A stretch of 64,000 bases of DNA from NCBI GenBank assembly GCA_964016885.1, contig OZ024764.1, forward strand, positions 28,954,001 to 29,018,000, read 5' to 3'. Made by a program: the position numbers and the translations under genes. Shown here piece after piece: positions 3,771 through 64,000 of this stretch (positions are counted from its first letter, which is position 1; every line of letters starts with the position of its first letter). The notes under the pieces were generated by a model. The model was not told where the DNA came from and did not search any database. It saw only the letters and a list, made by a program, of their open reading frames with translations. The stretch is from Eledone cirrhosa. Its lineage: Eukaryota.

Positions 3771-4436
3771 TGTTTATTATGTAATTAAATAGCTCTGTAC
3801 AATACATAGAGCACTCTTCTTTTCTTTACCTTTTCTATGGAAATACAAGAACAAACATATAAATATATATATATATGTATATACATAAACAAGACTGTTA
3901 TTGCTCCAACCAGTCTATTTACCTTTGATAACTATCCTAAATATAAATACACCTATACCATACATACATATATCATATATGTTTTTGATGCCGTGGTATA
4001 GCAGAGATAAGCAAGAAGAGAAAAGAAAATGAAAAGGAGAAAAAAAAAGAAGTAAGAAGTCGGGGGAGGGACAGACACTTCACCCCAGTCTAAGTGGTCT
4101 CTCAGCCGCAACCTGTGGAAGAAACGTAAAAGCGTTACCTCGGAGCAAGGCCAGAGACACCTGCTAGAGATCGACATGGGTAGAAAGGTTGAGAAATGCT
4201 GCACAATGTTCTTTGGTTTTTGTTCACCTTTAAATAATCATGTATAAAATATCGGGTGTGCAAGATTTCATGAAAAGGTATAACATTATTTATGCTGATC
4301 TTGCAGGGACTAGCTCCAATTGAGAGTTGTACCAATTCCCACTAAACTCGAAACTCCTGGACAATATATACATATCTTTATAAGTTCCTGTGTATTGTGT
4401 CGCTGTATAATGAAACATAAATATATACCATGCATG

Positions 4437-4684
4437 TCAGTCAGATTTGAACTCACTATATTTGGCGTTTTATAGATATAATTTGTTTGTTAAAACAATT
4501 GATTAAATAATAACTAAATAAAATTAATTCTACAATCCTGGATAGGGAATGAACTTATAACTGCATAATAGAAGCCATCTATTCGAGCAGTATTGCCATC
4601 TAAGCCACCAGGTTACTTACAGAACTTCATTCAAATATAAAATATAAAATATATGCCAGACATAGTGAGTTCGAATCTGACTGA
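4437..4684. mobile_element. MITE-like element, ~250 bp, with 30-bp terminal inverted repeats
   Basis: TCAGTCAGATTTGAACTCACTATATTTGGC vs GCCAGACATAGTGAGTTCGAATCTGACTGA (27/30 complementary). Confidence 0.7.
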
Positions 4685-4799
4685 TTAGTTGGTCATTGTC
4701 CCAGCCAACAGTTTAAATCGCCAACCAGTAGGTGACATCGACTAGGTTGGGAAAACTTGGTTAAGTAGCTCCAGTTATTGCTACGTTAGACATATTCAA

Positions 4800-4910
4800 G
4801 ACTTATCGACACTGAATGGAAGAAAGGTAAAGTTGAACTCAGAGTAAAGAACTGGAAAAATACTGCAAAGAATTCTATCTGATGTTCTAACAATTCTACC
4901 AAGTTACCGC
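4800..4910 (-). mobile_element. Old truncated tRNA-derived SINE
   Basis: Reverse complement reads TGGTAGAATTGTTAG..TCTGAGTTCAACTTTACCTTTC..GTCGATAAG; paralogues near 7410, 19525, 22210, 63050. Confidence 0.6.
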
Positions 4911-4991
4911 ATGTATATATATTTATATCTAGAGATAAGAAGAAAACTGTAAGAAAGAAAAGAAAAAAAATGAGACCTTATATGTAACCCA

Positions 4992-5700
4992 TGTTACAAC
5001 TCAATATATATATATTTGGGTTGTAACATATTCCCGCCGGTGAAATAAAAATTTTAATAGAAAACGGCGGGAATATATGTTAAAACCCAATCTATATATA
5101 TTTGAGTTGTAACATATATTCCCGCCGTTGAAATAAAAATTTGAATAGAAAAACGGCGGGAATATATGTTACAATCCAATGTACATATATTTGGGTTGTA
5201 ACATATATTCCCGCCGTTGAAATAAAAATTTTAATAGAAAAACGGCGGGAATATATGTTACAACGCAATCTATATATATTTGGGTTGTAACATATATTCC
5301 CGCCGTCGAAATAAAAATTTTAATAGAAAAACGGCGGGAATATATGTTACAACCCAATCTACATATATTTGGGTTGTAACATATATTCCCGCCGTTGAAA
5401 TAAAAATTTTAACATAAAAACGGCGGGAATATATATTACAACCCAAACATATATAGGTTGGGTTGTAACATATATTCCCGCCGTTTTTCTATTAAAATTT
5501 TTATTTCAACGGCGGGAATATATGTTACAACTCAAAAATATATAGATTGGGTTGTAACATATATTCCCGCCGTTTTTCTATTAAAATATTTATTTCAACG
5601 GCGGGAATATATGTTACAACCCAAAAATATGTAGGTTGGGTTGTAACATATATTCCCGCCGTTTTTCTATTAAAATTTTTATTTCACCGGCGGGAATATA
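4992..5700. repeat. Tandem array of 89-bp hairpin (palindromic) units, 8 units
   Basis: 28-bp stem TTGGGTTGTAACATATATTCCCGCCGTT / AACGGCGGGAATATATGTTACAACCCAA around an AT-rich loop; starts at 5102, 5191, 5280, 5369. Confidence 0.95.
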
Positions 5701-5723
5701 TATCCTGAGAGACTGAGAAATCT

Positions 5724-5975
5724 CTTTCAAAGAGATTTCTCAGTCTCTCAGGGTATATTTGCAATGGTGGCAACATAACCTTTCCTTTATTACAACAGTT
5801 ACAATTTTCATTTCTAAATTTCAAAGTTCCACAGTGATCACACGAAATATTCATATCACTAATATGAAATTCTTCTACATTTCCATTAATATTAATTGTT
5901 GGCAATTTCTCTTACGACGCTCATTATCCATTCTTCTCTGTCTGAATGTTTTCCAGTCTAAGTCTATTTGCATGG
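5724..5975 (-). pseudogene. Duplicated Helitron N-terminal fragment
   Basis: CDHCGTLKF..CCNKGKVMLPP; near-identical to 3532-3770. Confidence 0.8.
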
Positions 5976-6074
5976 AATAATTATATTCTGTTGTTTATTA
6001 TGTAATTAAATAGCTCTGTACAATATATATAGCATTCTTCTTTTCTTTACCTTTTCTATGGAAATACAAGAACA

Positions 6075-6133
<59 letters not shown>

Positions 6134-6681
6134 ATATACATAAACAAGACTGTTATTGCTCCAACCAGTCTATTTACCTTTGATAACTATCCTAAATATA
6201 AATACACCTATACCATACATACACATATTATATATGTTTTTGATGCCGTGGTATAGCAGAGATAAGCAAGAAGAGAAAAGAAAATGAAAATGAGAAAAAA
6301 AAAGAAGTAAGAAGTTGGGGGAGGGACAGACACTTCACCCCAGTCTAAGTGGTCCCTCAGCCGCAACCTGTGGAAGAAACGTAAAAGCGTTACCTCGGAG
6401 CAAGGCCAGAGACACCTGCTACAATAGTCGCCCCTCCTCATGAGGCTCCTGTTGTCTTTCCTCCCGACTTTATGGAGGAAATCAGCAGTACAGGGACCAA
6501 GTATGGCAGAGGTCTCAATGGAGTGGAAGAGGTGAGTCAGGCCTTGGTACTATCTTACTATCCTTTGCATTGCGGGGTGTGGAGCCTAGGTTTGTGGCTG
6601 TAGCTATATTTGAACTTTTATATGAAATTTCAGTTTTATATTTTTCACATCTTAAAACTTAATCTTAGTCTTTTGCAGCTC

Positions 6682-6721
6682 ATCTTGTTTCATCTCGCAG
6701 CACACGATTTGGGAACCACTG
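6682..6721 (-). mobile_element. hAT/Charlie-like transposon end (CAGTGGTTCCCAAA) with subterminal GAGATGAAACAAGAT
   Basis: Plus strand TTTGGGAACCACTG; copies near 18843, 21513, 40780, 62357; partner end not identified. Confidence 0.5.
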
Positions 6722-7046
6722 CTCTAGAGATAGAAAAAGTATATTTTATGCAGGGCTTCCCTGAGACATAAAAACTATTTCAAGAGATCGACATGGGTAG
6801 AAAGGTTGAGAAATGCTGCACAATGTTCTTTGGTTTTTGTTCACCTTTAAATAATCATGTATAAAATATCGGGTGTGCAAGATTTCATGAAAAGGTATAA
6901 CATTATTTATGCTGATCTTGCAGGGACTAGCTCCAATTGAGAGTTGTACCAATTCCCACTAAACTCCTGGACAATATATACATATCTTTATAAGTTCCTG
7001 TGTATTGTGTCGCTGTATAATGAAACATAAATATATACCATGCATG

Positions 7047-7294
7047 TCAGTCAGATTTGAACTCACTATATTTGGCGTTTTATAGATATAATTTGTTTGT
7101 TAAAACAATTGATTAAATAATAACTAAATAAAATTAATTCTACAATCCTGGATAGGGAATGAACTTATAACTTCATAATAGAAGCCATCTATTCGAGCAG
7201 TATTGCCATCTAAGCCACCAGGTTACTTACAGAACTTCATTCAAATATAAAATATAAAATATATGCCAGACATAGTGAGTTGGAATCTGACTGA
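7047..7294. mobile_element. MITE with 30-bp TIRs (paralogue of 4437-4684)
   Basis: Same TIR pair. Confidence 0.7.
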
Positions 7295-8348
7295 TTAGTT
7301 GGTCATTGTCCCAGCCAACAGTTTAAATCGCCAACCAGTAGGTGACATCGACTAGGTTGGGAAAACTTGGTTAAGTAGCTCCAGTTATTGCTACGTTAGA
7401 CATATTCAAGACTTATCGACACCGAATGGAAGAAAGGTAAAGTTGAACTCAGAGTAAAGAACTGGAAAAATACTGCAAAGAATTCTATCTGATGTTCTAA
7501 CAATTCTACCAAATTACCTTATGTATATATATTTATATCTAGAGATAAGAAGAAAACTGAAAGAAAGAAAAATGAGACCTTATATGTAACCCATGACCAG
7601 GATTGAAACCGAAACCATGACTACCACCATCTCTGGTGTCACCCACCAGACCACCATGAAAGATACAAACATCTGCTTTTTTAATATTTATAAGCCTACT
7701 TTCAATATTAAAGTAATTAACATGTGGTGTTGTTCATGCCTTTCTCTATGTTATTGGTAAAAAATAAAGTATTTAAACCTCAAATTTTGTTATTCAAATA
7801 TGCTTGCTTATGTAATTATAAATGTCGCAGAATACACACACATATATAGATGTGAAAATATTCAGGACCCCAACGGCTGTGCTACTGCCGTTTCGACATC
7901 TATATATATATCTTTTAGTCCTAGGCTCTTTCAGCGCAGAAAGAATTCTCCAATGATCACAACCAGCTAATGGTGCCCAGTGGAAGCACTTTAGTCGAAT
8001 TATAACCCCAACGATCACGATTAGCGGCGGCTTTTTCGAGTCTGAGGTTGACTGCCAGATATATATATATATATCTATATATATATATTTTTTTTTATAC
8101 TTTGCTAGAATCCCGGAGAACAACAGAAAGATGCTGAGTTCAGAGTTTAAAAAACATGTCCCCCTTTAATATAAAAACAATCCGAGTCTTGTAAAAGTGT
8201 TATTACTGTAATATAAAGTAGAAACCCTTTATTTAAACAAAGCTGAGATGCAGCGATCATCAAAGCAAACCCCAAAATGTAAACAAACTTCTCGCAGGTG
8301 CTGCCAGATACACGATAACATGTGTATACGAAGTGTAACAGGGAGTTG

Positions 8349-9300
8349 GGTCGTATTATATGACTTTCAAATTGACCCCTATTATATTCAAATTATCCCC
8401 TGTGGGGCGTGCACCCCACGTTGAGAATCCCTCATAAATAAATATATGTGAGTGTGTTGCTATGACTGCTATTTCTAGCAGGTTTACTGCAGTCCTGTAG
8501 ACGCACAACAAAAACCGGAAGTGGAAGCCATTAAAAAACTTTGGCTTAAAATCAGGCAAAAGTTTTTTAACAATTTGCCAAGAAAGATAACTCTTGTCTT
8601 ACTTAATCGCAAAAATCGAGGCAAAAAATGTTGCGGGTGTGCAGTTTGTTTGGTGTATTTGACTGCTATTTCTAGCATATATGGACACTTTAGAAATAGC
8701 AGCGAAACACGGGAAACATAAGAAAGAAGGACACACACGTATATATATATACATATATATATGCACAGATATATACATTTAAATATATATATTTATATAT
8801 ACATACACGCGCGCACACACACCTATACGTAGATATGGGTGTGTGTATAGCTGGTATATATATATATGTATGGGTGAGTGTATAGCTGGTATATATATAT
8901 ATATATATAGGTGTGTGTCCTTCTTTCTGCTGTTTTCCGTTTTTCGCTGCTATTTCTAAAGTGTCCATACATGCTAGAAATAGCAGTCAAATACACCAAA
9001 CAAACTGTACACCCGCAAAATTTTTGCCTCGATTTTTGCGATTAAGTAAGACAAGAGTTATCTTTCTTGGCAAATTGTTAAAAAACTTTTGCCTGATTTT
9101 AAGCCAAAGTTTTTTAATGGCTGCCACTTCCGGTTTTTGTTGTGCGTCTACAGGACTGCAGTAAACCTGCTAGAAATAGCAGTCATAGCAACACACTCAC
9201 ATATATTTATTTATGAGGGATTCTCAACGTGGGGTGCACGCCCCACAGGGGATAATTTGAATATAATAGGGGTCAATTTGAAAGTCATATAATACGACCA
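8349..9300. repeat. Long inverted repeat (arms ~8349-8745 and ~8905-9300, microsatellite centre); weaker symmetry extends to ~8200/9450
   Basis: Near-identical ORFs on opposite strands (8356..8559 - and 9089..9292 +); arms visibly complementary. Confidence 0.9.
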
Positions 9301-9548
9301 AGCTTCCAGATACACTTCGTATACACATGTTATTTGAAGTTTGTTTTGATCATCGCTGCATCGCAGCTTTGTTTAAATAAAGGGTTTCTACTTTATATTA
9401 CAGTAATAAAAGTTTTACTTCGTCTACACATGTTATCGTGTATCCGGCAGCACCTATGGGCTGTTTGTTTATACTTTGGTGTTTATTTTGATCATCGCCT
9501 CATCGCAGGTTTGTTTAATTAAAGGTTGCGAGAGGGATCACTGATATA

Positions 9549-9605
<57 letters not shown>

Positions 9606-9684
9606 AAGACACACACATATATATACATACACGCAGACATACACCTGTGTGTATGTGTATGTTCGTGTGTGCGTGTCTTTGGCT

Positions 9685-9763
<79 letters not shown>

Positions 9764-9884
9764 GTGTATATATATACAGACACACACTGTTGTTTCTTGA
9801 TTTTTAGCTGCTGTTTCTAAAGTGTCTATTAATATATGCTAGAAATAGCAGTCAAGGGAACATTTACGTATATATATGTAAGGA

Positions 9885-10265
9885 CAGTGACACCTGCTGC
9901 AACAGGCATCCAACCTCGTGGGACTCCATCCTCAGACGGGCCACAGACACTGCGATGTTGCGGAGGAGCTCGGCTGTAATGGGTCCAAGTTGGCCCGGGG
10001 TCTCGACGGCGGCTGGTGCTTAGAAGAGGCTCCAGGACAAACACCGGAATTTGTTTATGTTATGTTCATCTGCGAGACCGGCAGCGATGCTGGGGTTTGT
10101 GGATCTACCTCCTTCGAATGGGAAGAGGGTGATTCCCTCGCGGTGCTTGCCATCTCCGCGGCCTAGGCCTGCTGGCTCCAGTTGAGATGGAAATTCAGCT
10201 GCGTCCAGGCTTCTTCTCACTATGTCGTTGAGAGCATTTATGTGGCTCACACACGCGGAGGCCAA
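9885..10265 (-). pseudogene. CRE-like non-LTR retrotransposon C-terminal (restriction-like endonuclease) fragment
   Basis: HINALNDIVRRSL..EPAGLGRGDGKHREGITLFPFEGGRS (cf. EPxGLxRxDGKRPDG) then AVETPGQLGP..LLQQVSL. Confidence 0.7.
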
Positions 10266-10669
10266 GGCGTTGGGCTACACCGATGCGAGTTCAATCATCA
10301 TCAAGAATTTATTTGAATTGAAAGGTCACTAAACTAATATAGGAGTGTCATTTAAAAATAAGGTAAACAGAAATAGTTACACCGGTAACATAATTACTGT
10401 GACACCGGTAGTTCACTAACAAATCATTTCACGTTCGTCTCTAACAGGTAATGTTTTAATTTGCTCTCCATGTTGGGGAGTAACTGTAGTTTGGCTTGCT
10501 AGGGGTCATACATCTTCATACACACACACATACTATATATATATATACAAAGGAAAGGAAGATAAACAAATATCAGAGGATTTGACCGGCTTCTTCCTCT
10601 TGGCACCTGTAGCCACCATGACGTATAAGTATAAATATATATATATACATATCTATCTATCTATATATA

Positions 10670-10765
10670 TATCATCATTTTCATTTTACGTCTGCTTTTC
10701 CCTGTTTGCAAGGGTGGGGCATATATATATATATCATCATCATTATACATCCACTTTTCCCCGCT
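10670..10765 (-). mobile_element. Two short RTE-type LINE 3' ends with (GAT)n tails
   Basis: ATCATCATTATACATCCACTTTTCCC matches the 3' end of the RTE at ~33612. Confidence 0.6.
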
Positions 10766-10948
10766 TGGCAGCACCTACGAGAAGTTTGTTTTGATCATCG
10801 CTGCATCGTAGCTTTGTTTAAATAAAGGGTTTCTACTTTATATTACAGTAATAATACTTTCAGAATACTCGGATTGTTTTTATATTAAAGGGGAACATAA
10901 ACATATTTTAGAGGAGGGGTGTGGAACAGAAAAGTTTGGGGACCACTG
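10766..10948. mobile_element. hAT-like non-autonomous DNA transposon end
   Basis: Ends AAAGTTTGGGGACCACTG; internal part is the reverse complement of ~8155-8305. Confidence 0.5.
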
Positions 10949-11659
10949 ATACACACACACATTTATTTACTATATATATGTCTGTGTGTGTATACTATAT
11001 ATATATATATATGTACAGGGAGGTCGAAGCATTTCAGAATATTTCTAGGCGGGGGGGGGGGTGCAAATCCCCCTCTTTATATCAATTAGCACACACTCTC
11101 TCCCTCTCTATATCTACTACACGGCACTCTCTTCCAATACCCCTCTCTATATGAAGTAACACCAAACTCTCCCCCTCTCTATATATTAAGCACTAAGTCA
11201 GGAATTTTTTTCTTCTTTCGTGCAGAGAGAGTAAAGTTGATTAAATCTACTGCAGTGAATTACTGGTATTTTATTTAATAAAAATTAAAATTTACTATTT
11301 GTCTTCGTTTAATTTTCGTTTTTCTTTACATAGTTTCGTTTCGTTAAATGTCTCCAGAATTTGTTTTTACTTTTACCGGATATTGAAGGTGTAAACTTGG
11401 TGTTGTCTAGAAACGTGTTAGAAATATTTTTCTTTTAATTGTGAAGAATTTAACCGCAAAGTAAGTTTTTTTTACTGTTTATTTGTGGCTGGGACAACGT
11501 ATGGTATGTGTTAATGTAAATGGTGAAGGTTTAAAGATTCTTTTTACAACTGAAAATCAGTTTGTTGTTGCTGCTAATTACTTAACGCATGGAATAGATT
11601 AAAAAAATACAGGATTGTTTCTCGGAAGAGAGAAAGAAGAAACAACAAATCACAGAAGC

Positions 11660-11845
11660 GGGTAGCACACACATTTGGGACCACATACAACACAAAAACA
11701 GGTAATCCACACATCTGGGACCACATACAACACACCAGCAGGTAATACATACATCTAGGACCACATAAGCAGGTAATACACACATCTAGGACCACATACA
11801 ACACACAAGCAGGTAATACACACATCTAGGACGACATACAACCAA
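11660..11845 (+). repeat. Degenerate ~40-bp tandem repeat (CACACATCTRGGACCACATACAACAC..GCAGGTAAT)
   Basis: About 5 units; paralogue 26845-27025. Confidence 0.8.
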
Positions 11846-11939
11846 AGGCAGGCGAAAGGGGTGGACAAACGAGCTGCTACTAGAGCAAAAGATAACAGTA
11901 TCGCGAGGAGCACTGGGAAACCTCTCTAATGATTTTTTA

Positions 11940-12140
11940 GGCAAGCCAGCACGTCTGCAGCGTTACCTCGGGCGATGGCGAGGCTGAGGAGCTGGAACAA
12001 CCAAGTGCCCTCACGAGCTTCACCAGTCACCTTCGTCAGGCTAGCCGCCAGTGAAGATAGGAATCTCGCAGTCAGTATCCCGACTCCCCCAAACGCCACA
12101 GGCTGGAAAATGTAGTTAGCCGACAGATCACAGTATTACT
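11940..12140 (-). pseudogene. Second CRE-like non-LTR retrotransposon C-terminal fragment
   Basis: KYCDLSANYIFQPVAF..TGEAREGTWLFQLLSLAIARGNAADVL (cf. QRLSxAIQRGNAA); paralogue ~27125-27320. Confidence 0.7.
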
Positions 12141-12288
12141 TAACAGTGATAGATATTCTGTCTAAAGGAGGGGCGTGCAACAGGCGGCCCGCGGGCCACA
12201 ATCGAGCCCACCTGACCAGTCAGAGTGGCCCGCAATGACTGTTGTAGGCTTATTTAGAATTTTTTCCATACCCGTAATACTTCTGTTA

Positions 12289-12600
12289 GTTGACCTATAC
12301 TAAAGGACTTCACTGATAGGGTTATATGTGTTATAATTTCCCAGTTGACCTATACTAAAGGACTTCACTGATAGGGTTATATGTGTTATAGTTTCCCAGT
12401 TGACCTATACTAAAGGGCTTCACTGATAGAGTTATATGTGTTATAGTTTCCCAGAGGGCTTCACTGATAGGGTTATATGTGTTATAGTTTCCCAGTTGAC
12501 CTATACTAAAGGACTTCACTGATAGGGTTATATGTGTTATCGTTTCCCAGTTGACCTATACTAAAGGGCTTCACTGATAGAGTTATATGTGTTATAGTTT
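12289..12600 (+). repeat. 55-bp minisatellite (GTTGACCTATACTAAAGGACTTCACTGATAGGGTTATATGTGTTATAGTTTCCCA), ~6 units
   Basis: GTTGACC at 12289 and 12344. Confidence 0.95.
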
Positions 12601-12840
12601 GAAACAAACTACCTGCATCAGTTATTATACTTTTATAACACCGCTATATTACCTACATGAAAGAGGTAAATATTTATTTCTCTTGTCTTCTTAAATGTAT
12701 AGAACATTTTTCTTATATATATTCTTAACATAGCTAGGACCGTTTATTATTTACTAGTCTCTACTCCTAGGACTTTGCTGGTCTCATGTCCCCTCCATCA
12801 ACACACACTCGGTAGAAAGCTGGTCGTCGGAGGTAAAGTG

Positions 12841-13177
12841 GCCCTGATTACAGGTCTAGTATTGAAGCCTTTCGGCTTGAGCCTTGCTGATGCCGACAGA
12901 GTTCCTGTGGTAGTTTTGGTAGCACAGGTGACATTTTATTGTGTTTAGGTACCGGCTAGTGCGGACACAGAGCACAACCAGGTGGTGAGCTGGCAACGAC
13001 CAAGTGTAGAGGGCCAGCTTTGAAATTCGAGCGACGGAGTGAACTAGTAAAAGAGGCAGGGTAAGCAGCATTGGTTCTAACGGTGGGACTAGAACGGAGG
13101 TTGGGTGGTGCTGGGGGTGGGCTAACAGCTAACAGTTGTAGGAGTGGTGGGGGTTTGCTAGGATTAATTTTTACATC
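12841..13177 (-). pseudogene. Pro-rich linker plus degenerate PHD zinc finger downstream of Helitron Pif1 domain
   Basis: CALC..IKCHLCYQNYHRNSVGISKAQAERLQY*TCNQG; 2-nt frameshift in this copy. Confidence 0.65.
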
Positions 13178-14769
13178 TGTCTGTGAACTCTTGAAAAAGC
13201 AACATACAATTGTCCAGGGTTAAATACTTGCTCAGGGAGGAACAGACCCACTTTATCATGTATTTGACCATGGTTCTTGTTGATTGTCATGGCATATGAC
13301 AGTCTTAATGGAAACTGGGGTCTTTCCAAAGTAAAAGGGATGTTGGCACCACTGGGGGATAACTTCAGTCTTGGGATCAAAACACACCTGCCCATCAAAG
13401 GACCATAGATATGAGAAGCTTTGATAAAATGTTTATGCAGTTCTACTACTTCTAATCTTGTGCCATTACATAATCTGTTCTGGATTGAAATATTCCATAG
13501 AAGCATTATTATTGATCCTGCTTATAATTGGAGTTTGTGAGGCGGCATCCCAGAAGGTGTAAGCAAGTTCATTTAGCTTGAACCAGGCAGCAAGGGTCCC
13601 TGCATTTCTACCACAACCTGAGCATTGCCTCTTTGAAAGTAAACTCTGTTTGTTCTCCAGGTGTGTGGCTAGGCTGTATACTGTATGTGATGTACCATGA
13701 AGCTTAAATTCCGAGAGACACGACACTGCTTCTGGCTGAGACACATACCTGCAACAAAGATAGGTTCTTATTTCATCATGGTTGTGTTGGTTCTGAGCCT
13801 CATTAGGTAATGCATTATTCGTTACTTCTATAGATGTACAATCATGCCCCATGTAACATATTTAAAGAGGTACTTGACACTTTTTACAGAAGCGCAAACT
13901 TCAACATTAATATGTGCACAATATTTCTTAAGCAAAAAGGCATTAAATGGCATAACATTCCTGTTATCTACTGAATGTCATCCAATTTACACTGCAGTTC
14001 CTGTCTTGCACCTCCTGTACTCTGGGTATCCATTTAGGTTCAATAATGTTTCCCTTCTGTAGGTTTTTGGATAGTTCTTTTTGAAAAATCCATTTTGTAT
14101 AAATGGGGGAAAAGGGTTTCCAGAACCACATGGCCTGTGGATCATAAACTTTTAAACCTGCTCATGTAGTACTGGATCATCTTCCAATGCAGGTATTTCT
14201 GCTGACACGATTCTGTCAATGTCTTCTCTGTTTCTTATCTTGTCTTCATTTTTTAAGGCTCAGTGTTATCATCTGTTTAGATAATTCATTAAACCATTAT
14301 ACTCATCCACTCACAATTGGGCTTGATTGTTCCTCAAATATTGAAGCCTGCATCCCTCTACTTTCATATAGGCATCCACTAAATACTGCTAAAATAATTT
14401 ACCTGCCCTATATATCGCACTAAATCCTCCTCTATATGCTATACAGTATATGTAATACTCCTGCATTGTCAGTCTATTGCAAACACAGGTCCTACATTCC
14501 TCTCCATGGCACTATGCCACCAAAATTCACCATTATCGGTCGGTCATGAGGTCCAAGTGGCATGCATTATGTGGTATTTTCTGAGGAGGATGGTCTTTAG
14601 GAAAGATGATAATATCTCTTTGTACAGGTGGTGTGCCCTCAATCCCCCACAAAACAACAGCTATCATTACTAGTTGGTAAATTAGAGCAGCTCATATCTG
14701 ATCCTCTTCTAAATCTTAATTCACAGTTCTGTACACGACAATTTTCTCTTCTTGCACTTTGCTGTTTGA
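13171..14769 (-). pseudogene. Helitron RepHel pseudogene (Rep remnants plus Pif1 helicase C-terminus), copy A, 3' part
   Basis: LCNGTRL, QFPLRLSYAMTINK, GQLYVAFSRV (Pif1); VKYLFKY, DEIRTYL..RYVSQPEA, QYLVDAYMKVE (Rep region); stops and frameshifts. Confidence 0.92.
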
Positions 14770-14787
14770 GATGAAACAAGATAGCAA

Positions 14788-15130
14788 TGTCCATAACATT
14801 ACATGTCAGAATTATTAGCCACAGGGGCAGAGATGTCCATAACATTACATGTCAGAATTATTAGCCACCGGGGCAGAGATGTCCATAACATTACATGTCA
14901 GAATTATTAGCCACAGGGGCAGAGATGTCCATAACATTACATGACAGAATTATTAGCCACAGGGGCAGAGATGACCATAACATTACATGACAGATTTATT
15001 AGCCACAGGTGCAGACATGACCATAACATTACATGACAGAATTATTAACCACAGGGGCAGAGATGACCATAACATTACATGACAATTATTAGCCCCAGGG
15101 GCAGATATGTCCATAACATTACATGACAGA
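14788..15130 (+). repeat. 46-bp minisatellite array interrupting Helitron copy A
   Basis: About 7 units; Helitron sequence GTTTGA|TGCC is continuous at 30051-30060 but split here. Confidence 0.95.
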
Positions 15131-16445
15131 GTTTCATCTCGCGCTCTCTCTCTCTCGTTTCATCTCGCTCTCTCTCTCTCTCGTTTCATCTCTGTCTTCC
15201 TCTCTCTCATTTCATCTCTGTCTTCCTCTCTCTCGTTCCATCTCTCTCTTCCTCTCTCTCGTTCCATCTCTCTCTTCCTCTCTCTCGTTTCATCACTCTC
15301 TCTCGTTTCATCTCTATTTCTCTCTCTCGTTTCATCTGTCTCTCTCTCTGTCGTTTCATCTCCCTCTATCTCTCTCTCGCTCTTTCATTTCATCTCTCTC
15401 TCCCTCTCGTTTCATCTCGCTCTCTCTCTCCTGTTTCATCTCGCTCTCTCTCTCCTGTTTCATCTCGCTCTCTCTCTCCTGTTTCATCTCGCTCTCTAGT
15501 CTCGTTTCCTCTCTCTCTCATTTCATCTCGCTCTCTCTCTCTCATTTCATCTCGCTCTCACTCTCTCTCATTTCATCTCGCTCTCTCTCTCTCATTTCAT
15601 CTCGCTCTCACTCTCTCATTTCATCTCGCTCTGACTCTCTCTCATTTCATCTCGCTCTCTCTCTCTCTCGTTTCATCTCGCTCTCTCTCTCTCATTTCAT
15701 GTCGCTCTCACTCTCTCTCATTTCATCTCGCACTCACTCTCTCATTTCATCTCGCTCTCTCTCTCTCTCGTTTCATCACGCTCTCTCTGTCTCATTTCAT
15801 CTCGCTCTCTCTCTCTCTCTCTCTCTCTCGTTTCATCTCGCTCTATCTCTCTCTCATTTCATCTCACTCTCTCTCTCTCTCGTTTCATCTCGCTCTCATT
15901 TCATCTCGCTCTCTCTCTCTCGTTCCATCTTGCTCTCTCTCTCTCTTCCTCTCTCTCTTGTTTCAACACTCTAATCCCTCACTTGTTTCATCTCTCTCTT
16001 GTTTCAATTCGTTCTCTCTCTCTCTCTCTCTTTCTCTCCCCTCTCTCTTTCTCTCCCCTCTCTCTCTTGTTTCATCCCTCACCCTCTTGTTTCATCCCCC
16101 CTCTCCCTCTTCCTCTCTCTCTCTTCCTCTCTCTCTCTCTTTCTCTCTCTCTCTTCCTCTCTCTCTCTCTTCCTCTCTCTCTCTCTCTTCCTCTCTCTCT
16201 CTCTTTCACACTCTATCTCCGACTCGTTTCATCACTCTCTCCCCTCTCTCCCCTCACCCTCTTGTTTCAACTCTCTCCTCGTTTCAACTCTCTCTCCTCT
16301 CGTTTCAACTCTCTCTCTCTCTCTCCTCTCGTTACAACTCTCTCTCTCTCTCCTCTCGTTTCAACTCTCTCTCTCTTTTCTCGTTTCAACTCTCTCCTCT
16401 CTTGTTTCAACTCTCTCACCTCTCGTTTCAACTCTTTCTCTCTGT
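15131..16445 (+). repeat. CT-rich GTTTCATCTCGC(TC)n satellite
   Basis: Direct repeat pattern. Confidence 0.93.
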
Positions 16446-16646
16446 GTCTCCAATGTGTAATAAACCGTGACTCATATATATATACCGAAGAATGTACATA
16501 AACACATACATACACGCATGTGTATATATATATACATACATGTGTCTCTCTCTCTCCCTATATATATGTATATATGTATAAATATGTACATACATATTAG
16601 TGTATATATATTGCTATCTATATGCATATTTGTATAATTATACTGT

Positions 16647-16813
16647 ATGGTGAATTGGCAGTATCGGTAGAGGGTCTGACGCCATGCTTTCCAGCATAGT
16701 TACGTCCCTTTACGATCCGAGGTTAACTTTGCCTTTCATCCTTACGGGGTCGATAAAATAAAGTACCAGTAATGTACTGGTTAATTGCTGGCCTTGTGCC
16801 TAAAGTAGAAACA
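16647..16813 (+). mobile_element. tRNA-derived SINE (paralogue of 2297-2464)
   Basis: Near-identical sequence and flanks. Confidence 0.8.
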
Positions 16814-17349
16814 ATTATTAGTTCAAAGAGAAACCACCATCCTACCTGAAATATTATGTTATCATATTAAATATTTCTTATACTGTCATGTTTTTTCTTT
16901 AAAACGATTGCATCTCAATAAAGTGAAGAAAACTATTATATACTGTTGTTATATCATTATACTTTAGTTTTAACATTTCTATGTGTATAAATATAATGTA
17001 TGTAAGTGTGTTTGAAAATATATAATAATAATATGCATGTTTGAAGCAGGGTTCAACTGAAATATCTATACCAGTAACTTAATTAGTGTTACACCTTAGG
17101 CATAAACTATTTGGCATTCTTTGAAGGAGGTACTAGGTTTTTCGCTGTCTTAAATGGAGTATACACGCGCACACGATGCATATATATAAATTGTTTTTCT
17201 CTGTACAAAGAGATTGACATCATTTCTTAAATCATTATTTAGGGTTTTACAACAAAACATATTGTATGTGTAATTATACAAATTGAATTTAAGTATTTAT
17301 TTTAAAATTTTACATACACTTTAGTAGTATATATATATATATTCATTTG

Positions 17350-18109
17350 TGATGCCATGCATTGTATTGTACACTTCGACATATGGATTATATTCATGCA
17401 ACACCTCTCTTATCATAGCCATTTTTTGTGGTGAGCAGTCATTATTTGTTGGGACTAGGGCAGTGGATTGGCAGTATCGGTAGAGCGTCAGACACCATGC
17501 TTTGCAGCATAGGGTTATGGCCCTTTACGTTCTGGGTTCAAATCCCTCTAAGGTTGACTTTGTTTTCATCCTTATGAGGTCGATAGAATAAAGTATCAGT
17601 AATTGCTGGCCTTGTGCCAGAAACAATTATTTGGTTGTACTTCCAATCTGTGCTACACACCTTCGTTCCCATCAATAATATATAACTGGCCATATTGTGG
17701 TGTATTTTCTGCAGGTTACAGAGATGGGTGTGTATTGATATGTTTGACCCTGAATATGAAATCTATACGGGCCTCTGCCGGGTGGTAACACCAAATGAAG
17801 TGAAATAAATGTAGTTTTAATTGCAGATGTTTCTGTGAAATCAACTGCTTCCTGGCCTCTTTCAAAGAGATTTCTCAGTCTCTCAGGGTATATTTGCAAT
17901 GGTGGCAACACTACCTTTCCTTTATTACAACAGTTACAATTTTCATTTCTAAATTTCAAAGCTCCACAGTGATCACACGAAACATTCATATCACTAATAT
18001 GAAATTCTTCTACATTTCCATTAATATTAATTGTTGGCCAATTTCTCTTACGACGCTCATTATCCATTCTTCTCTGTCTGAATGTTTTCCATTCTAAGTC
18101 TATTTGCAT
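17350..18109 (-). pseudogene. Helitron RepHel N-terminal part of copy A (SINE at 17457-17625)
   Basis: CDHCGALKF..CCNKGKVVLPP..PPGRGPYRFHIQGQTY. Confidence 0.88.
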
Positions 18110-18210
18110 GGAATAATTATATTCTGTTGTTTATTATGTAATTAAATAGCTCTGTACAATACATAGAGCATTCTTCTTTTCTTTACCTTTTCTATGGAAA
18201 TACAAGAACA

Positions 18211-18255
<45 letters not shown>

Positions 18256-19174
18256 ACATACATAAACAAGACTGTTATTGCTCCAACCAGTCTATTTACC
18301 TTTGATAACTATCCTAAATATAAATACACCTATACCATACATACATATATCATATATGTTTTTGATGCCGTGGTATAGCAGAGATAAGCAAGAAGAGAAA
18401 AGAAAATGAAAATGAGAAAAAAAAAGAAGTAAGAAGTCGGGGGAGGGACAGACACTTCACCCCAGTCTAAGTGGTCCCTCAGCCGCAACCTGTGGAAGAA
18501 ACGTAAAAGCGTTACCTCAGAGCAAGGCCAGAGACACCTGCTACAATAGTCGCCCCTCCTCATGAAGCTCCTGTCGTCTTTCCTCCCGACTTTATGGAGG
18601 AAATCAGCAGTACAGGGACCAAGTATGGCAGAGGTCTCAATGGAGTGGAAGAGGTGAGTCAGGCCTTGGTACTATCTTACTATCCTCTGCATTGCGGGGT
18701 GTGGAGCCTAGGTTTGTGGCTGTAGCTATATTTGAACTTTTATATGAAATTTCAGTTTTATATTTTTCACATCATAAAACTTAATCTTAGTCTTTTGCAG
18801 CTCATCTTGTTTCATCTCTCAGCACACGATTTGGGAACCACTGCTCTAGAGATAGAAAAAGTATATTTTATGCAGGGCTTCCCTGAGACATAAAAACTAT
18901 TTCAAGAGATCGACATGGGTAGAAAGGTTGAGAATGCTGCACAATGTTCTTTGGTTTTTGTTCACCTTTAAATAATCATGTATAAAATATCGGGTGTGCA
19001 AGATTTCATGAAAAGGTATAACATTATTTATGCTGATCTTGCAGGGACTAGCTCCAACTGAGAGTTGTACCAATTCCCACTAAACTCGAAACTCCTGGAC
19101 AATATATACATATCTTTATAAGTTCCTGTGTATTGTGTCGCTGTATAATGAAACATAAATATATACCATGCATG

Positions 19175-19408
19175 TCAGTCAGATTTGAACTCACTATATT
19201 TGGCGTTTTATAGATATAATTTGTTTGTTAAAACAATTGATTAAATAATAACTAAATAAAATTAATTCTACAATCCTGGATAGGGAATGAACTAGAAGCC
19301 ATCTATTCGAGCAGTATTGCCATCTAAGCCACCAGGTTACTTACAGAACTTCATTCAAATATAAAATATAAAATATATGCCAGACATAGTGAGTTCGAAT
19401 CTGACTGA
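19175..19408. mobile_element. MITE with 30-bp TIRs (paralogue); further copies 21847-22094 and 62690-62937
   Basis: Same TIR pair, small internal deletion. Confidence 0.7.
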
Positions 19409-19714
19409 TTAGTTGGTCATTGTCGCAGCCAACAGTTTAAATCGCCAACCAGTAGGTGACATCGACTAGGTTAGGAAAACTTGGTTAAGTAGCTCCAGTT
19501 ATTGCTACGTTAGACATATTCAAGACTTATCGACACTGAATGGAAGAAAGGTAAAGTTGAACTCAGAGTAAAGAACTGGAAAAATACTGCAAAGAATTCT
19601 ATCTGATGTTCTAACAATTCTACCAAGTTACCTTATGTATATATATTTATATCTAGAGATAAGAAGAAAACTGAAAGAAAGAAAAGAAAAAAAATGAGAC
19701 CTTATATGTAACCC

Positions 19715-20515
19715 ATGTTACAACTCAATATATATATATTTGGGTTGTAACATATTCCTGCCGGTGAAATAAAAATTTTAATAGAAAAACGGCGGGAATA
19801 TATGTTACAACCCAATCTCTATATATTTGAGTTGTAACATATATTCCCGCCGTTGAAATAAAAATTTTAATAGAAAAACGGCGGGAATATATGTTACAAT
19901 CCAAGCTACATATTTTGGGGTTGTAACATATATTCCCGCCGTTGAAATAAAAATTTTAATAGAAAAACGGCGGGAATATATGTTACAACCCAACCTATAT
20001 ATGTTTGGGTTGTAATATATATTCCCGCCGTTTTTATGTTAAAATTTTTATTTCAACGGCGGGAATATATGTTACAACCCAAATATATGTAGATTGGGTT
20101 GTAACATATATTCCCGCCGTTTTTCTATTAAAATTTTTATTTCAACGGCGGGAATATATGTTACAACCCAAATATATGTAGATTGGGTTGTAACATATAT
20201 TCCCGCCGTTTTTCTATTAAAATGTTTATTTCAACGGCGGGAATATATGTTAAAACCCAAATATATATAGATTGGGCTGTAACATATATTCCCGCCGTTT
20301 TTCTATTAAAATTTTTATTTCAACGGCGGGAATATATGTTACAACCCAAATATATATAGATTGGGTTGTAACATATGTTCCCGCCGTTTTCCTATTAAAA
20401 TTTTTATTTCAACGGCGGGAATATATGTTACAACCTAAATATATATAGATTGGGTTGTAACATATATTCCCGCCGTTTTTCTATTAAAATTTTTATTTCA
20501 ACGGCGGGAATATAT
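19715..20515. repeat. Second array of 89-bp hairpin units, 9 units
   Basis: Same stem; 3 loops in one orientation then 6 in the other. Confidence 0.95.
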
Positions 20516-20535
20516 ACCCTGAGAGACTGAGAAAT

Positions 20536-20788
20536 CTCTTTCAAAGAGATTTCTCAGTCTCTCAGTGTATATTTGCAATGGTGGCAACACAACCTTTCCT
20601 TTATTACAACAGTTACAATTTTCATTTCTAAATTTCAAAGCTCCACAGTGATCACACGAAACATTCATATCACTAATATGAAATCCTTCTACATTTCCAT
20701 TAATATTAATTGTTGGCCAATTTCTCTTACGACGCTCATTATCCATTCTTCTCTGTCTGAATGTTTTCCAGTCTAAGTCTATTTGCAT
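20536..20788 (-). pseudogene. Duplicated Helitron N-terminal fragment
   Basis: ORF 20498..20788 CDHCGALKF..CCNKGKV. Confidence 0.8.
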
Positions 20789-20894
20789 GGAATAATTATA
20801 TTCTGTTGTTTATTATGTAATTAAATAGCTCTGTACAATACATAGAGCATTCTTCTTTTCTTTACCTTTTCTATGGAAATACAAGAACAAACAG

Positions 20895-20926
<32 letters not shown>

Positions 20927-23138
20927 ATATACATAAACAAGACTGTTATTGCTTCAACCAGTCTATTTACCTTTGATAACTATCCTAAATATAAATACAC
21001 CTATACCATACATACACATATCATATATGTTTTTGATGCCGTGGTATAGCAGAGATAAGCAAGAAGAGAAAAGAAAATGAAAATGAGAAAAAAAAAGAAG
21101 TAAGAAGTCGGGGGAGGGACAGACACTTCACCCCAGTCTAAGTGGTCCCTCAGCCGCAACCTGTGGAAGAAACGTAAAAGCGTTACCTCGGAGCAAGGCC
21201 AGAGACACCTGCTACAATAGTCGCCCCTCCTCATGAGGCTCCTGTCGTCTTTCCTCCCGACTTTATGGAGGAAATCAGCAGTACAGGGACCAAGTATGGC
21301 AGAGGTCTCAATGGAGTGGAAGAGGTGAGTCAGGCCTTGGTACTATCTTACTATCCTTTGCATTGCGGGGTGTGGAGCCTAGGTTTGTGGCTGTAGCTAT
21401 ATTTGAACTTTTATATGAAATTTCAGTTTTATATTTTTCACATCTTAAAACTTAATCTTAGTCTTTTGCAGCTCATCTTGTTTCATCTCGCAGCACACGA
21501 TTTGGGAACCACTGCTCTAGAGATAGAAAAAGTATATTTTATGCAGGGCATCCCTGAGACATAAAAACTATTTCAAGAGATCGACATGGGTAGAAAGGTT
21601 GAGAAATGCTGCACAATGTTCTTTGGTTTTTGTTCACCTTTAAATAATCATGTATAAAACATCGGGTGTGCAAGATTTCATGAAAAGGTATAACATTATT
21701 TATGCTGATCTTGCAGGAACTAGCTCCAATTGAGAGTTGTACCAATTCCCACTAAACTCGAAACTCCTGGACAATATATACATATCTTTATAAGTTCCTG
21801 TGTATTGTGTCGTTGTATAATGAAACATAAATATATACCATGCATGTCAGTCAGATTTGAACTCACTATATTTGGCGTTTTATAGATATAATTTGTTTGT
21901 TAAAACAATTGATTAAATAATAACTAAATAAAATTAATTCTACAATCCTGGATAGGGAATGAACTTATAACTTCATAATAGAAGCCATCTATTCGAGCAG
22001 TATTGCCATCTAAGCCACCAGGTTACTTACAGAATGTCATTCAAATATAAAATATAAAATATATGCCAGACATAGTGAGTTCGAATCTGACTGATTAGTT
22101 GGTCATTGTCCCAGCCAACAGTTTAAATCGCCAACCAGTAGGTGACATCGACTAGGTTGGGAAAACTTGGTTAAGTAGCTCCAATTATTGCTACGTTAGA
22201 CATATTCAAGACTTATCGACACCGAATGGAAGAAAGGTAAAGTTGAACTCAGAGTAAAGAACTGGAAAAATACTGCAAAGAATTCTATCTGATGTTCTAA
22301 CAATTCTACCAAATTACCTTATGTATATATATTTATATCTAGAGATAAGAAGAAAACTGAAAGAAAGAAAAAAAAAAATGAGACCTTATATGTAACCCAT
22401 GACCGGGATTGAAACCGAAACCAGGACTACCACCATCTCTGGTATCACCCACCAGACCACCATGAAAGATTAAAAAATCTGCTTTTTTAATCTTTATAAC
22501 CCTACTTTCAATATTAAAGTAATTAACATGTGGTGTTGTTCATGCCTTTCTCTATGTTATTGGTAAAAAATAAAGTATTTAAACCTCAAATTTTGTTATT
22601 CAAATATGCTTGCTTATGTAATTATAAATGTCGCAGAATACACACACATATATAGATGTGAAAATATTCAGGACCCCAACGGCTGTGCTACTGCCGTTTC
22701 GACATCTATATATATATCTTTTAGTCCTAGGCTCTTTCAGCGCAGAAAGAATTCTCCAATGATCACAATCAGCTAATGGTGCCCAGTGGAAGCACTTTTA
22801 GTCTAATTATAACCCCAACGATCACGATTAGCGGCGGCTTTTTCGAGTCTGAGGTTGACTGCCAGCTATATATATATATATATTTTTATACTTTGCTAGA
22901 ATCCCGGAGAACAACAGAAAGATGCTGAGTTCAGAGTTTAAAAAACATGTCCCCTTTAATATAAAAACAATCCGAGTCTTGTAAAAGTGTTATTACTGTA
23001 ATATAAAGTAGAAACCCTTTATTTAAACAAAGCTGCGATGCAGCGATCATCAAAGCAAACCCCAAAATGTAAACAAACTTCTCGCAGGTGCTGCCAGATA
23101 CACGATAACATGTGTATACGAAGTGTAACAGGGAGTTG

Positions 23139-60787: not shown

Positions 60788-60913
60788 ATTATTTAGGGTT
60801 TTACAACAAAACATATTGTATGTGTAATTATACAAATTGAATTTAAGTATTTATTTTAAAATTTTACATACACTTTAGTAGTATATATATATATATATAT
60901 ATATATTCATTTG

Positions 60914-61657
60914 TGATGCCATGCATTGTATTGTACACTTCGACATATGAATTACGTTCATGCAACACTTCTCTTATCATAGCCATTTTTTATGGTGAGC
61001 AGTCATTATTTGTTGGTACTAGGGCAGTGGATTGGCAGTATCGGTAGAGCGCCAGACACCATGCTTTACAGCATAGGGTTATGGCCATTTACGTTCTGGG
61101 TTCAAATCCCTCCAAGGTTGACTTTGTTTTCATCCTTATGAGGTCGATAGAATAAAGTACCAGTAATTGCTGGCCTTGTGCCAGAAACAATTATTTGGTT
61201 GTACTTCCAATCTGTGCTACACACCTTCGTTCCCATCAATAATATATAACTGGTCATATTGTGGTGTATTTTCTGCAGGTTACAGAGATGGGGGTGTAGT
61301 GATATGTTTGACCCTGAATATGAAAGCTATACGGGCCTCTGCCGGGTGGTAACACCAAATGAAGTGAAATAAATGTAGTTTTAATTGCAGATGTTTCTGT
61401 GAAATCAACTGCTTCCTGGCCTCTTTCAAAGAGATTTCTCAGTCTCTCAGGGTATATTTGCAATGGTGGCAACACAACCTTTCCTTTATTACAACAGTTA
61501 CAATTTTCATTTCTAAATTTCAAAGCTCCACAGTGATCACACGAAACATTCATATCACTAATATGAAATTCTTCTACATTTCCATTAATATTAATTGTTG
61601 GCCAATTTCTCTTACAACGCTCATTATCCATTCTTCTCTGTCTGAATGTTTTCCATT
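60914..61657 (-). pseudogene. Helitron N-terminal fragment of U4 (SINE at 61021-61189)
   Basis: ORF 61254..61631 near-identical to 3345..3740. Confidence 0.85.
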
Positions 61658-64000
61658 CTGTTGTTTATTATGTAATTAAATAGCTCTGTACAATACATAG
61701 AGCACTCTTCTTTTCTTTACCTTTTCTATGGAAATACAAGAACAAACATGTAAATATATATATATATGTATATACATAAACAAGACTGTTATTGCTCCAA
61801 CCAGTCTATTTACCTTTGATAACTATCCTAAATATAAATACACCTATACCATACATACATATATCATATATGTTTTTGATGCCGTGGTATAGCAGAGATA
61901 AGCAAGAAGAGAAAAGAAAATGAAAAGGAGAAAAAAAAAGAAGTAAGAAGTCGGGGGAGGGACAAACACTTCACCCCAGTCTAAGTGGTCCCTCAGCCGC
62001 AACCTGTGGAAGAAACGTAAAAGCGTTACCTCGGAGCAAGGCCAGAGACACCTGCTACAATAGTCGCCCCTCCTCATGAGGCTCCTGTCATCTTTCCTCC
62101 CGACTTTATGGAGGAAATCAGCAGTACAGGGACCAAGTATGGCAGAGGTCTCAATGGAGTGGAAGAGGTGAGTCAGGCCTTGGTACTATCTTACTATCCT
62201 CTGCATTGCGGGGTGTGGAGCCTAGGTTTGTGGCTGTAGCTATATTTGAACTTTTATATGAAATTTCAGTTTTATATTTTTCACATCATAAAACTTAATC
62301 TTAGTCTTTTGCAGCTCATCTTGTTTCATCTCGCAGCACACGATTTGGGAACCACTGCTCTAGAGATAGAAAAAGTATATTTTATGCAGGGCTTCCCTGA
62401 GACATAAAAACTATTTCAAGAGATCGACATGGGTAGAAAGGTTGAGAAATGCTGCACAATGTTCTTTGGTTTTTGTTCACCTTTAGATAATCATGTATAA
62501 AATATCGGGTGTGCAAGATTTCATGAAAAGGTATAACATTATTTATGCTGGTCTTGCAGGGACTAGCTCCAATTGAGAGTTGTACCAATTCCCACTAAAC
62601 TCGAAACTCCTGGACAATATATACATATCTTTATAAGTTCCTGTGTATTGTGTCGCTGTATAATGAAACATAAATATATACCATGCATGTCAGTCAGATT
62701 TGAACTCACTATATTTGGCGTTTTATAGACAGAATTTGTTTGTTAAAACAATTGATTAAATAATAACTAAATAAAATTAATTCTACAATCCTGGATAGGG
62801 AATGAACTTATAACTTCATAATAGAAGCCATCTATTCGAGCAGTATTGCCATCTAAGCCACCAGGTTACTTACAGAACTTCATTCAAATATAAAATATAA
62901 AATATATGCCAGACATAGTGAGTTCGAATCTGACTGATTAGTTGGTCATTGTCCCAGCCAACAGTTTAAATCGCCAACCAGTAGGTGACATCGACTAGGT
63001 TGGGAAAACTTGGTTAAGTAGCTCCAGTTATTGCTACGTTAGACATATTCAAGACTTATCGACACCGAATGGAAGAAAGGTAAAGTTGAACTCAGAGTAA
63101 AGAACAGGAAAAATACTGCAAAGAATTCTATCTGATGTTCTAACAATTCTACCAAATTACCTTATGTATATATATTTATATCTAGAGATAAGAAGAAAAC
63201 TGAAAGAAAGAAAAAAAAAAATGAGACCTTATATGTAACCCATAAACAGGATTGAAACCGAAACCAGGACTACCACCATCTCTGGTATCACCCACCAGAC
63301 CACCATGAAAGATACAAAAATCTGCTTTTTTAATATTTATAAGCCTACTTTCAATATTAAAGTAATTAACATGTGGTGTTGTTCATGCCTTTCTCTATGT
63401 TATTGGTAAAAAATAAAGTATTTAAACCTCAAATTTTGTTATTCAAATATGCTTGCTTATGTAATTATAAATGTCGCAGAATACACACACATATATAGAT
63501 GTGAAAATATTCAGGACCCCAACGGCTGTGCTACTGCCGTTTCGACATCTATATATATATATTTTTGTCCTAGGCTCTTTCAGCGCAGAAAGAATTCTCC
63601 AATGATCACAACCAGCTAATGGTGCCCAGTGGAAGCACTTTAGTCTAATTGTAACCCCAACGATCACGATTAGCGGCGGCTTTTTCGAGTCTGAGGTTGA
63701 CTGCCAGATATATATATATATATCTATATATATATATATATATTTTTATACTTTGCTAGAATCCCGGAGAACAACAGAAAGATGCTGAGTTCAGAGTTTA
63801 AAAAACATGTCCCCTTTAATATAAAAACAATCCGAGTCTTGTAAAAGTGTTATTACTGTAATATAAAGTAGAAACCCTTTATTTAAACAAAGCTGCGATG
63901 CAGCGATCATCAAAGCAAACCCCAAAATGTAAACAAACTTCTCGCAGGTGCTGCCAGATACACGATAACATGTGTATACGAAGTGTAACAGGGAGTTGGG

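What the first reader, a model, noticed from the sequence alone, without database searches (positions are those of the whole stretch)
4992..20515. Invertible (flip-flop) array of 89-bp hairpins is in opposite orientation in two paralogues
Seen: array 1 (4992-5700) has loop orientations FFFFF-RRR and array 2 (19715-20515) has FFF-RRRRRR, while the flanks are colinear. A diagnostic variant unit (loop ..AACATAAAAA, stem ATATATTACA, spacer ACATATATAGG) at 5371-5470 is the exact 100-bp reverse complement of 19981-20080. Inference: the body of the array was inverted in place by recombination or template switching between its own inverted stems, with a one-unit copy change. It behaves as a self-invertible cassette.
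Basis: partly seen in the sequence, partly recalled or inferred. Interest (0 to 1): 0.7.

Follow-up and report, generated by a model that had tools for sequence, protein, structure and literature searches.

The report
Mariner MITE palindrome array, inverted once
The repeat is a short chain of a tiny jumping-gene remnant arranged as a mirror image; its middle lies in opposite directions in two families of copies, likely from one past inversion that was then copied along with a larger repeat, so it is ordinary repeat evolution rather than a working flip switch.

Summary
Observation holds: array 1 is F5R3 and array 2 F3R6. The stated 100 bp are exact reverse complements, and the match extends to 224 bp. 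The unit is a 78-bp mariner MITE plus an 11-bp TA-rich spacer. Dispersed TA-flanked copies and a broken D,D34D transposase parent with the same TIRs exist. I parsed 87 complete arrays on three contigs (about 97% of genome-wide stem matches). All are F^nR^m with the same junctions, inside a Helitron-derived macrosatellite. Only the centre (3-5 units) is inverted. The array-1 orientation (25 of 87) is one clade on the downstream-flank tree: 1 change against a shuffled mean of 18 (C25 arrays), with the nearest flank SNPs in perfect linkage. This is a single historical inversion amplified with its host repeat, not a flip-flop cassette. Rare arm-to-arm transfer of variants is modestly supported (4 of 18, P=0.014). 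This array was not in the scan's notes, but other two-armed arrays (retrozymes) were noted elsewhere in this genome. Low interest.

The parts
4994..5701 (.). MITE array 1 (F5R3; centre orientation A), 8 units of a 78-bp mariner MITE with 11-bp TA-rich spacers, preceded by a partial TIR
19718..20515 (.). MITE array 2 (F3R6; centre orientation B), 9 units
5308..5531 (+). 224-bp exact reverse complement of 19920-20143; core of the inverted centre (best-fit inverted block = units 3-6, about 5207-5519)
19920..20143 (-). Mirror partner of 5308-5531, holding the variant unit and the F/R switch
5698..5758 (.). Right junction: 30-bp-arm fold-back palindrome with 1-nt loop. The left arm is an inverted copy of the start of block B, joined to the MITE by ATAT microhomology
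   Evidence: same junction in 87 of 87 arrays
20512..20572 (.). Same fold-back palindrome at array 2
19715..19717 (+). Left junction microhomology ATG between the end of block B and the MITE TIR (array 1: 4991-4993)
   Evidence: same junction in 87 of 87
17857..19717 (+). Block B (1.86 kb), upstream copy at array 2; starts inside the Helitron ORF remnant
20536..22401 (+). Block B, downstream direct copy at array 2 (1.4% from the upstream copy)
5722..7595 (+). Block B, downstream copy at array 1 (the upstream copy, about 3530-4993, carries a deletion)
60788..64000 (+). Empty (array-free) form A-B-C with one copy of B (61421-63243)
17672..18130 (-). Decayed Helitron transposase N-terminal piece (host macro-repeat)
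   Evidence: Helraiser 7LCC E=9e-6
13171..13861 (-). Decayed Helitron Rep/helicase pieces (host macro-repeat)
   Evidence: 7LCC E=2e-11; Pif1_2B E=8e-7

Best explanation
This is a mirror-image (F^nR^m) chain of a 78-bp mariner MITE inside a Helitron-derived macrosatellite, and its central 3-5 units were likely inverted once, in one ancestral copy, by a crossover or double template switch between the two arms. Step 1 (shown): the unit is a MITE with dispersed TA-flanked copies and a transposase-coding parent. Step 2 (structure shown, mechanism inferred): one MITE concatemer was written into the junction of a 1.86-kb tandem duplication by repair-type template switching (ATG microhomology in, one strand switch at a TIR, ATAT microhomology out, 30-bp fold-back, restart), not by transposase. 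Step 3 (shown): the composite was amplified to at least 87 copies on three contigs, gaining and losing units. Step 4 (single event shown on the tree, mechanism inferred): one copy inverted its centre and founded the 25-copy A family; B is probably ancestral because it occurs on all three contigs. Step 5 (modest support): paired arms occasionally pass variants across without crossover.
For: MITE: 69 exact parent-type TIR matches on many contigs. Of 28 distinct elements examined, 26 have both TIRs, and 20 of those 26 have TA on both sides. L135 is a 1483-bp element with both TIRs. L132 has the same left end and matches HTH_48 E=3e-19 and Transposase_1 E=5e-20, with 34 residues between the last two aspartates (counted by hand). 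One origin: same left and right junction in 87 of 87; 1380 of 1380 matching TIR arms carry one A>T change from the parent TIR; 265 of 269 head-to-tail junctions genome-wide lie in these arrays. One inversion: A 25, B 58, unclassifiable 4 of 87. Downstream tree: 1 change (FastTree; IQ-TREE quick, support 86; total length 0.21 subs/site); C25-only shuffles mean 18, minimum 12 of 200. Divergence A vs C25-B 1.2%, within families 0.5-0.6%. An F5R4 A copy fits a C18 F4R5 copy with 12 mismatches when units 4-6 or 3-7 are inverted, against 22 for none and 17 for the whole array. Conversion: 4 of 18 rare loop variants match variants common on the opposite arm, null mean 1.2, P=0.014; T27G stands in the first unit of 83 arrays and the last unit of 35.
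Against: The upstream-flank tree needs 3 changes (84 of 87 rows, array 1 among the 3 dropped). I ascribe this to exchange between tandem B copies, since the nearest upstream SNP is still perfectly linked, but that is inference. The A branch is short (0.0014) with support 86-88, and paralogue conversion can distort such trees. 4 C20 arrays lost the markers, and 10 C20 arrays hint at a second inverted transfer (mirrored A70G plus spacer). Array 1 alone among A copies carries a B-family marker (G47T) in F orientation, so some inverted exchange is recent. The conversion test used thresholds chosen after seeing the data. One assembly cannot show rare somatic flips or polymorphism. The origin mechanism rests on one event.
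Confidence: 0.8

Rival explanations
1. Active flip-flop cassette: the array inverts repeatedly between its own stems, so each locus holds both orientations.
For: The array folds into a very long hairpin (-392 kcal/mol, z -56). One inversion did happen. There are cross-arm variants, including G47T in array 1.
Against: 1 change on the downstream-flank tree and perfect linkage to the nearest flank SNPs. 0 of 87 F-R-F patterns, where ten random block inversions would leave none with probability 0.008. None of the 6 of 31 long ORF-like stretches scanned matched a recombinase family.
Confidence: 0.07
2. No single crossover: the mirrored centre arose by a long inverted gene-conversion tract or by re-synthesis of one arm from the other, or from a paralogue, replacing the middle units.
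For: Arms share derived variants in mirrored order (T27G, G4A, C75G). All TIR arms are homogenised.
Against: The unique centre markers (variant unit, its spacer, T28C) are reversed together and present once, not duplicated, as an inversion predicts.
Confidence: 0.08
3. Origin rival (compatible with one later inversion): both ends of a DNA break were extended on the same single-stranded 89-nt MITE circle or dumbbell (DNA or RNA), and the two products joined through their TIRs, giving F^nR^m in one step.
For: Single-switch geometry in 87 of 87; both ends fall mid-TIR with 3-4 bp microhomology and no TA target duplication. The two junction windows overlap in register (unit positions 65-67 and 63-66), so the insert is a whole number of units (chance about 0.09, my estimate). 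Earlier notes report two-armed retrozyme arrays in this genome (untested here).
Against: One event only; no comparable MITE concatemer was found elsewhere (265 of 269 junctions in this family, the first listed lies on C18). A single polymerase that switches strand at a TIR gives the same shape. The 1.86-kb duplication is unexplained by simple twin priming.
Confidence: 0.15
4. Assembly or sequencing artefact at palindromes.
For: Long palindromes are hard to sequence and assemble (general knowledge). No listed read record spans the centre.
Against: 87 arrays carry heritable variants that track flank SNPs. A short-read contig of run X1 spans loop 1, spacer and loop 2 with 1 difference (19765-19883), and three of four runs cover 26-30 of 30 bins (X1 may be the source sample).
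Confidence: 0.02

Closest known systems
MADE1, the 80-bp human mariner-derived MITE (PMC4330264, passages; its Hsmar1 parent is recalled)
   Same: About 80 bp, nearly all TIR, hairpin-forming, inserted at TA-rich sites.
   Different: TIRs here are about 28 bp around a 22-23 bp core (MADE1: two 37-bp TIRs, 6-bp core); here one copy was tandemised into palindromic arrays.
MITE-derived tandem repeats: Angel fold-back model, Xstir, miDNA4 (reviews PMC12628747, passages and section 4 part 1; PMC9659126, passages; primary papers not read)
   Same: A hairpin MITE yields tandem copies; fold-back of the nascent strand is a proposed route.
   Different: Here the whole MITE with its TA flank is the monomer (miDNA4 and Xstir are described as internal repeats), the array has one orientation switch, and it spreads as cargo of a 15-kb macro-repeat.
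Tandem arrays of decayed Helitrons carrying internal repeats (PMC12628747, same passages)
   Same: The host macro-unit is a decayed Helitron with satellites inside, in tandem over megabases; the review notes internal arrays oriented in different directions in oyster.
   Different: Helitron termini were not identified here, so rolling-circle amplification is not shown.
Fold-back inversions through ssDNA hairpins (PMC7467729, abstract and outline only); arm homogenisation by template switching (PMC13100816, start of abstract in listing)
   Same: A short-stem, short-loop hairpin extended into a 30-bp palindrome at a rearrangement junction; inverted arms made alike.
   Different: Germline repeat in an animal, inferred from sequence, not an assayed yeast rearrangement.
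Bacterial invertible switches (fimS, hin, shufflons; recalled, no call)
   Same: A segment between inverted repeats occurs in two orientations.
   Different: No recurrent flipping, no recombinase found, no regulated gene found.

Membership tests
mariner-derived MITE (the monomer) | Short non-coding element with terminal inverted repeats | tested here: met
   74-81 bp singles with both TIRs, 26 of 28 distinct elements
mariner-derived MITE (the monomer) | TA target duplication | tested here: met
   TA on both sides in 20 of 26, left 23, right 23; (TA)n context inflates this, and no empty sites were compared
mariner-derived MITE (the monomer) | TIRs shared with a D,D34D transposase element | tested here: met
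   L135 with both TIRs and L132; HTH_48 and Transposase_1; 34-residue spacing counted by hand; the D,D34D definition is recalled
mariner-derived MITE (the monomer) | Dispersed multicopy | tested here: met
   69 exact TIR matches over more than 15 contigs, control 0
Invertible switch (inverton / shufflon) | Recurrent inversion, orientation unlinked from flanks | tested here: not met
   1 change on the downstream tree; perfect linkage to nearest SNPs
Invertible switch (inverton / shufflon) | Both orientations at one locus within an individual | not testable with these tools
   No long reads among the 10 listed runs; no listed piece spans the centre
Invertible switch (inverton / shufflon) | Dedicated recombinase and a regulated gene or promoter | tested here: inconclusive
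   6 of 31 long ORF-like stretches scanned, no recombinase; only Helitron and RT remnants; Rfam 0
Foldback (FB/Galileo-like) transposon | Moves as a unit: different insertion sites with target duplications | tested here: not met
   Same junctions in 87 of 87 arrays, ends fall mid-TIR; arrays were mostly selected by their left junction, but they hold 1070 of 1101 stem matches
Helitron tandem array (host macro-repeat) | Rep/helicase remnants | tested here: met
Helitron tandem array (host macro-repeat) | 5' TC and 3' hairpin-CTRR termini joined head to tail | tested here: inconclusive
   One candidate 3' boundary examined, no terminus found

The most novel reading that the evidence does not exclude
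A cut-and-paste MITE was copied as a single-stranded 89-nt circle from both ends of a chromosome break at once, producing a ready-made palindromic satellite seed. The seed then behaves as a miniature palindrome with arm-to-arm conversion and rare inversion, and the 87 natural replicates would let both rates be measured.
Probability: 0.15. Interest if true: 0.55.

Novelty: new member of a known kind. Interest (0 to 1): 0.24.

Why it matters
As found, it is a tidy worked example of repeat evolution: a mariner MITE became a palindromic mini-satellite in one complex repair event and spread as cargo of a Helitron-derived macrosatellite. The 87 paralogues give a rough rate for inversion inside a 0.7-kb palindrome: about one event in 0.21 substitutions per site of summed branch length, comparable to a point mutation in a target of about 5 bp. 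They also show that 28-bp stems alone rarely invert. No gene or function is implicated. It would matter more if long reads showed somatic flipping, or if the two-ended circle-copying origin recurred.

Tried and rejected
Rfam on the whole window: 0 matches. Search for other head-to-tail concatemers of this MITE: none listed on C1-C17, 4 of 269 sites not in my parsed arrays and not followed up. Helitron 3' terminus at 12628: not found. Two parsed fragments cut by region ends (RR, FFFFFR) were dropped before all counts of 87; the FFFFFR fragment is kept in the 1070 and 265 counts, and both are kept in the 1380 count. Public runs: only short-read contigs and RAD reads, which cannot link centre orientation to flanks; a narrower look at the centre gave no result, so the F/R junction is not confirmed outside the assembly. 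Whole-array inversion and foldback-transposon readings were rejected. The scan's notes held nothing near this place or similar in sequence. Four paper searches listed no title on a palindromic whole-MITE array or on this repeat; that is a limited look, and the primary Angel, Xstir and miDNA4 papers were not read. No supplements were opened.
Full report
Observation. The window is G000:C25:28954001-29018000 of a 3.0-Gb assembly; its SINEs and microsatellites look octopod-like to me (recalled, no call). Array 1 parses as F5R3 and array 2 as F3R6. The flanks are colinear. Trying every block of units, the best model inverts units 3-6 of array 1 (21 mismatches), better than the whole array (26) or no inversion (32).

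The unit. The 21-bp stem has 1101 exact matches in the genome, control 0. The first nine listed are solitary hairpins of about 80 bp in TA-rich sites on other contigs or places. The parent-type TIR has 69 exact matches. Of 30 loci fetched, 28 are distinct elements; 26 have both TIRs and 20 of those 26 have TA on both sides. L135 is a 1483-bp element with both TIRs and L132 shares its left end. Both carry a broken transposase matching HTH_48 and Transposase_1, and I count 34 residues between the last two aspartates in L132. The 89-bp unit is therefore a 78-bp mariner MITE plus an 11-bp TA-rich spacer, and F and R are the MITE's two orientations.

The setting. Each array lies between two direct copies of a 1.86-kb block (A-B-array-B-C), and the empty form A-B-C is at 60788-64000. 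The left junction has ATG microhomology to the TIR. The right junction has ATAT microhomology followed by an inverted copy of the start of B, which extends a 6-bp hairpin into a 30-bp palindrome. Neither end is a TIR end, so transposase did not make this insertion (inference). The surrounding unit of about 14.7 kb is built on a decayed Helitron, with dispersed relatives at about 80% identity.

The family. The left junction has 82 exact matches on C18, C20 and C25. Fetching these regions gave 89 parsed arrays, of which 2 were cut by region ends and dropped. The 87 complete arrays plus one cut array hold 1070 of the 1101 stem matches and 265 of 269 head-to-tail junctions. All 87 share both junctions, and all are F^nR^m with 4-15 units. 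All 1380 TIR arms that match either state carry the same A>T change from the parent. The family has one origin.

How often it inverted. By centre markers, 25 arrays are of the array-1 type (A, all on C25), 58 of the array-2 type (B; C25 30, C18 18, C20 10) and 4 cannot be classed. On the downstream-flank tree (86 rows) A is one clade: 1 change, against a shuffled mean of 18 and minimum 12 in 200 shuffles among the 55 C25 arrays. IQ-TREE also gives 1 change, support 86, tree length 0.21. The upstream tree (84 rows) needs 3 changes, but the nearest SNP on each side is perfectly linked to orientation in C25 (24/24 vs 30/30; 25/25 vs 30/30). A and C25-B flanks differ by 1.2%, against 0.5-0.6% within each. 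C18 copies mirror the A centre cleanly: inverting units 4-6 or 3-7 of an F5R4 copy leaves 12 mismatches, against 22 without inversion. 38% of random unit-block inversions would break the F^nR^m pattern; none of 87 is broken, which has probability 0.09 after five events and 0.008 after ten. Unit number varies freely by direct-repeat gain and loss, which explains the 8 versus 9 units.

Results that lean the other way. Variants do cross between arms. T27G is in the first unit of 83 arrays and the last unit of 35, and array 1 alone among A copies carries the B marker G47T in F orientation. 4 of 18 rare loop variants match variants common on the opposite arm (null 1.2, P=0.014, thresholds set after seeing the data). 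Ten C20 arrays show a mirrored TIR variant with its spacer. The array can fold into one long hairpin. So arm pairing with occasional conversion is likely, with crossover seen once. One assembly cannot exclude rare somatic flips.

Reads. The run search listed no long reads. On array 2, a contig of X1 spans two successive loops with 1 difference, and 95 reads of X8 show the empty-site junction at 20536. No listed piece spans the F/R centre, and the left-junction contigs have under 31 laid letters on the host side.

Origin. A single polymerase switching templates (in at ATG, strand switch at a TIR, out at ATAT, fold-back, restart on B) explains all junctions (inference). The two junction windows overlap in register, so the insert is a whole number of units (chance about 0.09 by my estimate). 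With the earlier notes on two-armed retrozyme arrays in this genome (not tested), this leaves open a two-ended copying of an 89-nt circle, probability about 0.15.

Known kinds. MITE-derived tandem repeats, a fold-back model for MITE duplication and tandem decayed Helitrons are reviewed in PMC12628747 (passages and section 4 part 1) and PMC9659126 (passages). MADE1 is the closest monomer (PMC4330264, passages). Hairpin-mediated fold-back is described in PMC7467729 (abstract and outline). Four searches listed no title on this particular arrangement.

Verdict. Real, correctly seen, over-interpreted: one historical inversion in a MITE-derived palindromic array, propagated by macrosatellite amplification. 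New member of a known kind; interest 0.24.

Noticed in passing
window 12628-14769 and 17350-18130 (-), repeated about every 14.7 kb; C25 26.5-29.1 Mb, C18 34.9-35.7 Mb, C20 26.8-27.2 Mb: A decayed Helitron interrupted by a 46-bp satellite and a CT-rich 24-bp satellite forms a megabase-scale macrosatellite; array-bearing copies are on the minus strand up to 27.99 Mb and on the plus strand from 28.66 Mb of C25.
   Followed up: partly
window 41126-41922 and 49113-49897: The 46-bp satellite switches strand inside its own array at about 41354 and 49343, bounding an inverted 8-kb satellite block.
   Followed up: no
window 8191-9418: An imperfect palindrome of about 1.2 kb (86% identity with its own reverse complement).
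   Followed up: no
window 34337-35149 (-): Broken reverse-transcriptase pieces (RVT_1), probably a LINE remnant.
   Followed up: no
L129-L140, L031-L060: At least two internal variants of the 79-80 bp MITE, one built mostly from the parent's 5' end and one from its 3' end, suggest separate miniaturisation events.
   Followed up: partly
C18:35149560 and 35152254 (L068): Two arrays have an 18-bp insertion that duplicates part of a TIR and spacer.
   Followed up: no
window 4979-4991 and 19703-19715: The end of block B holds a sequence resembling the MITE TIR with 3 bases missing, just before the left junction; it may have guided the template switch.
   Followed up: no
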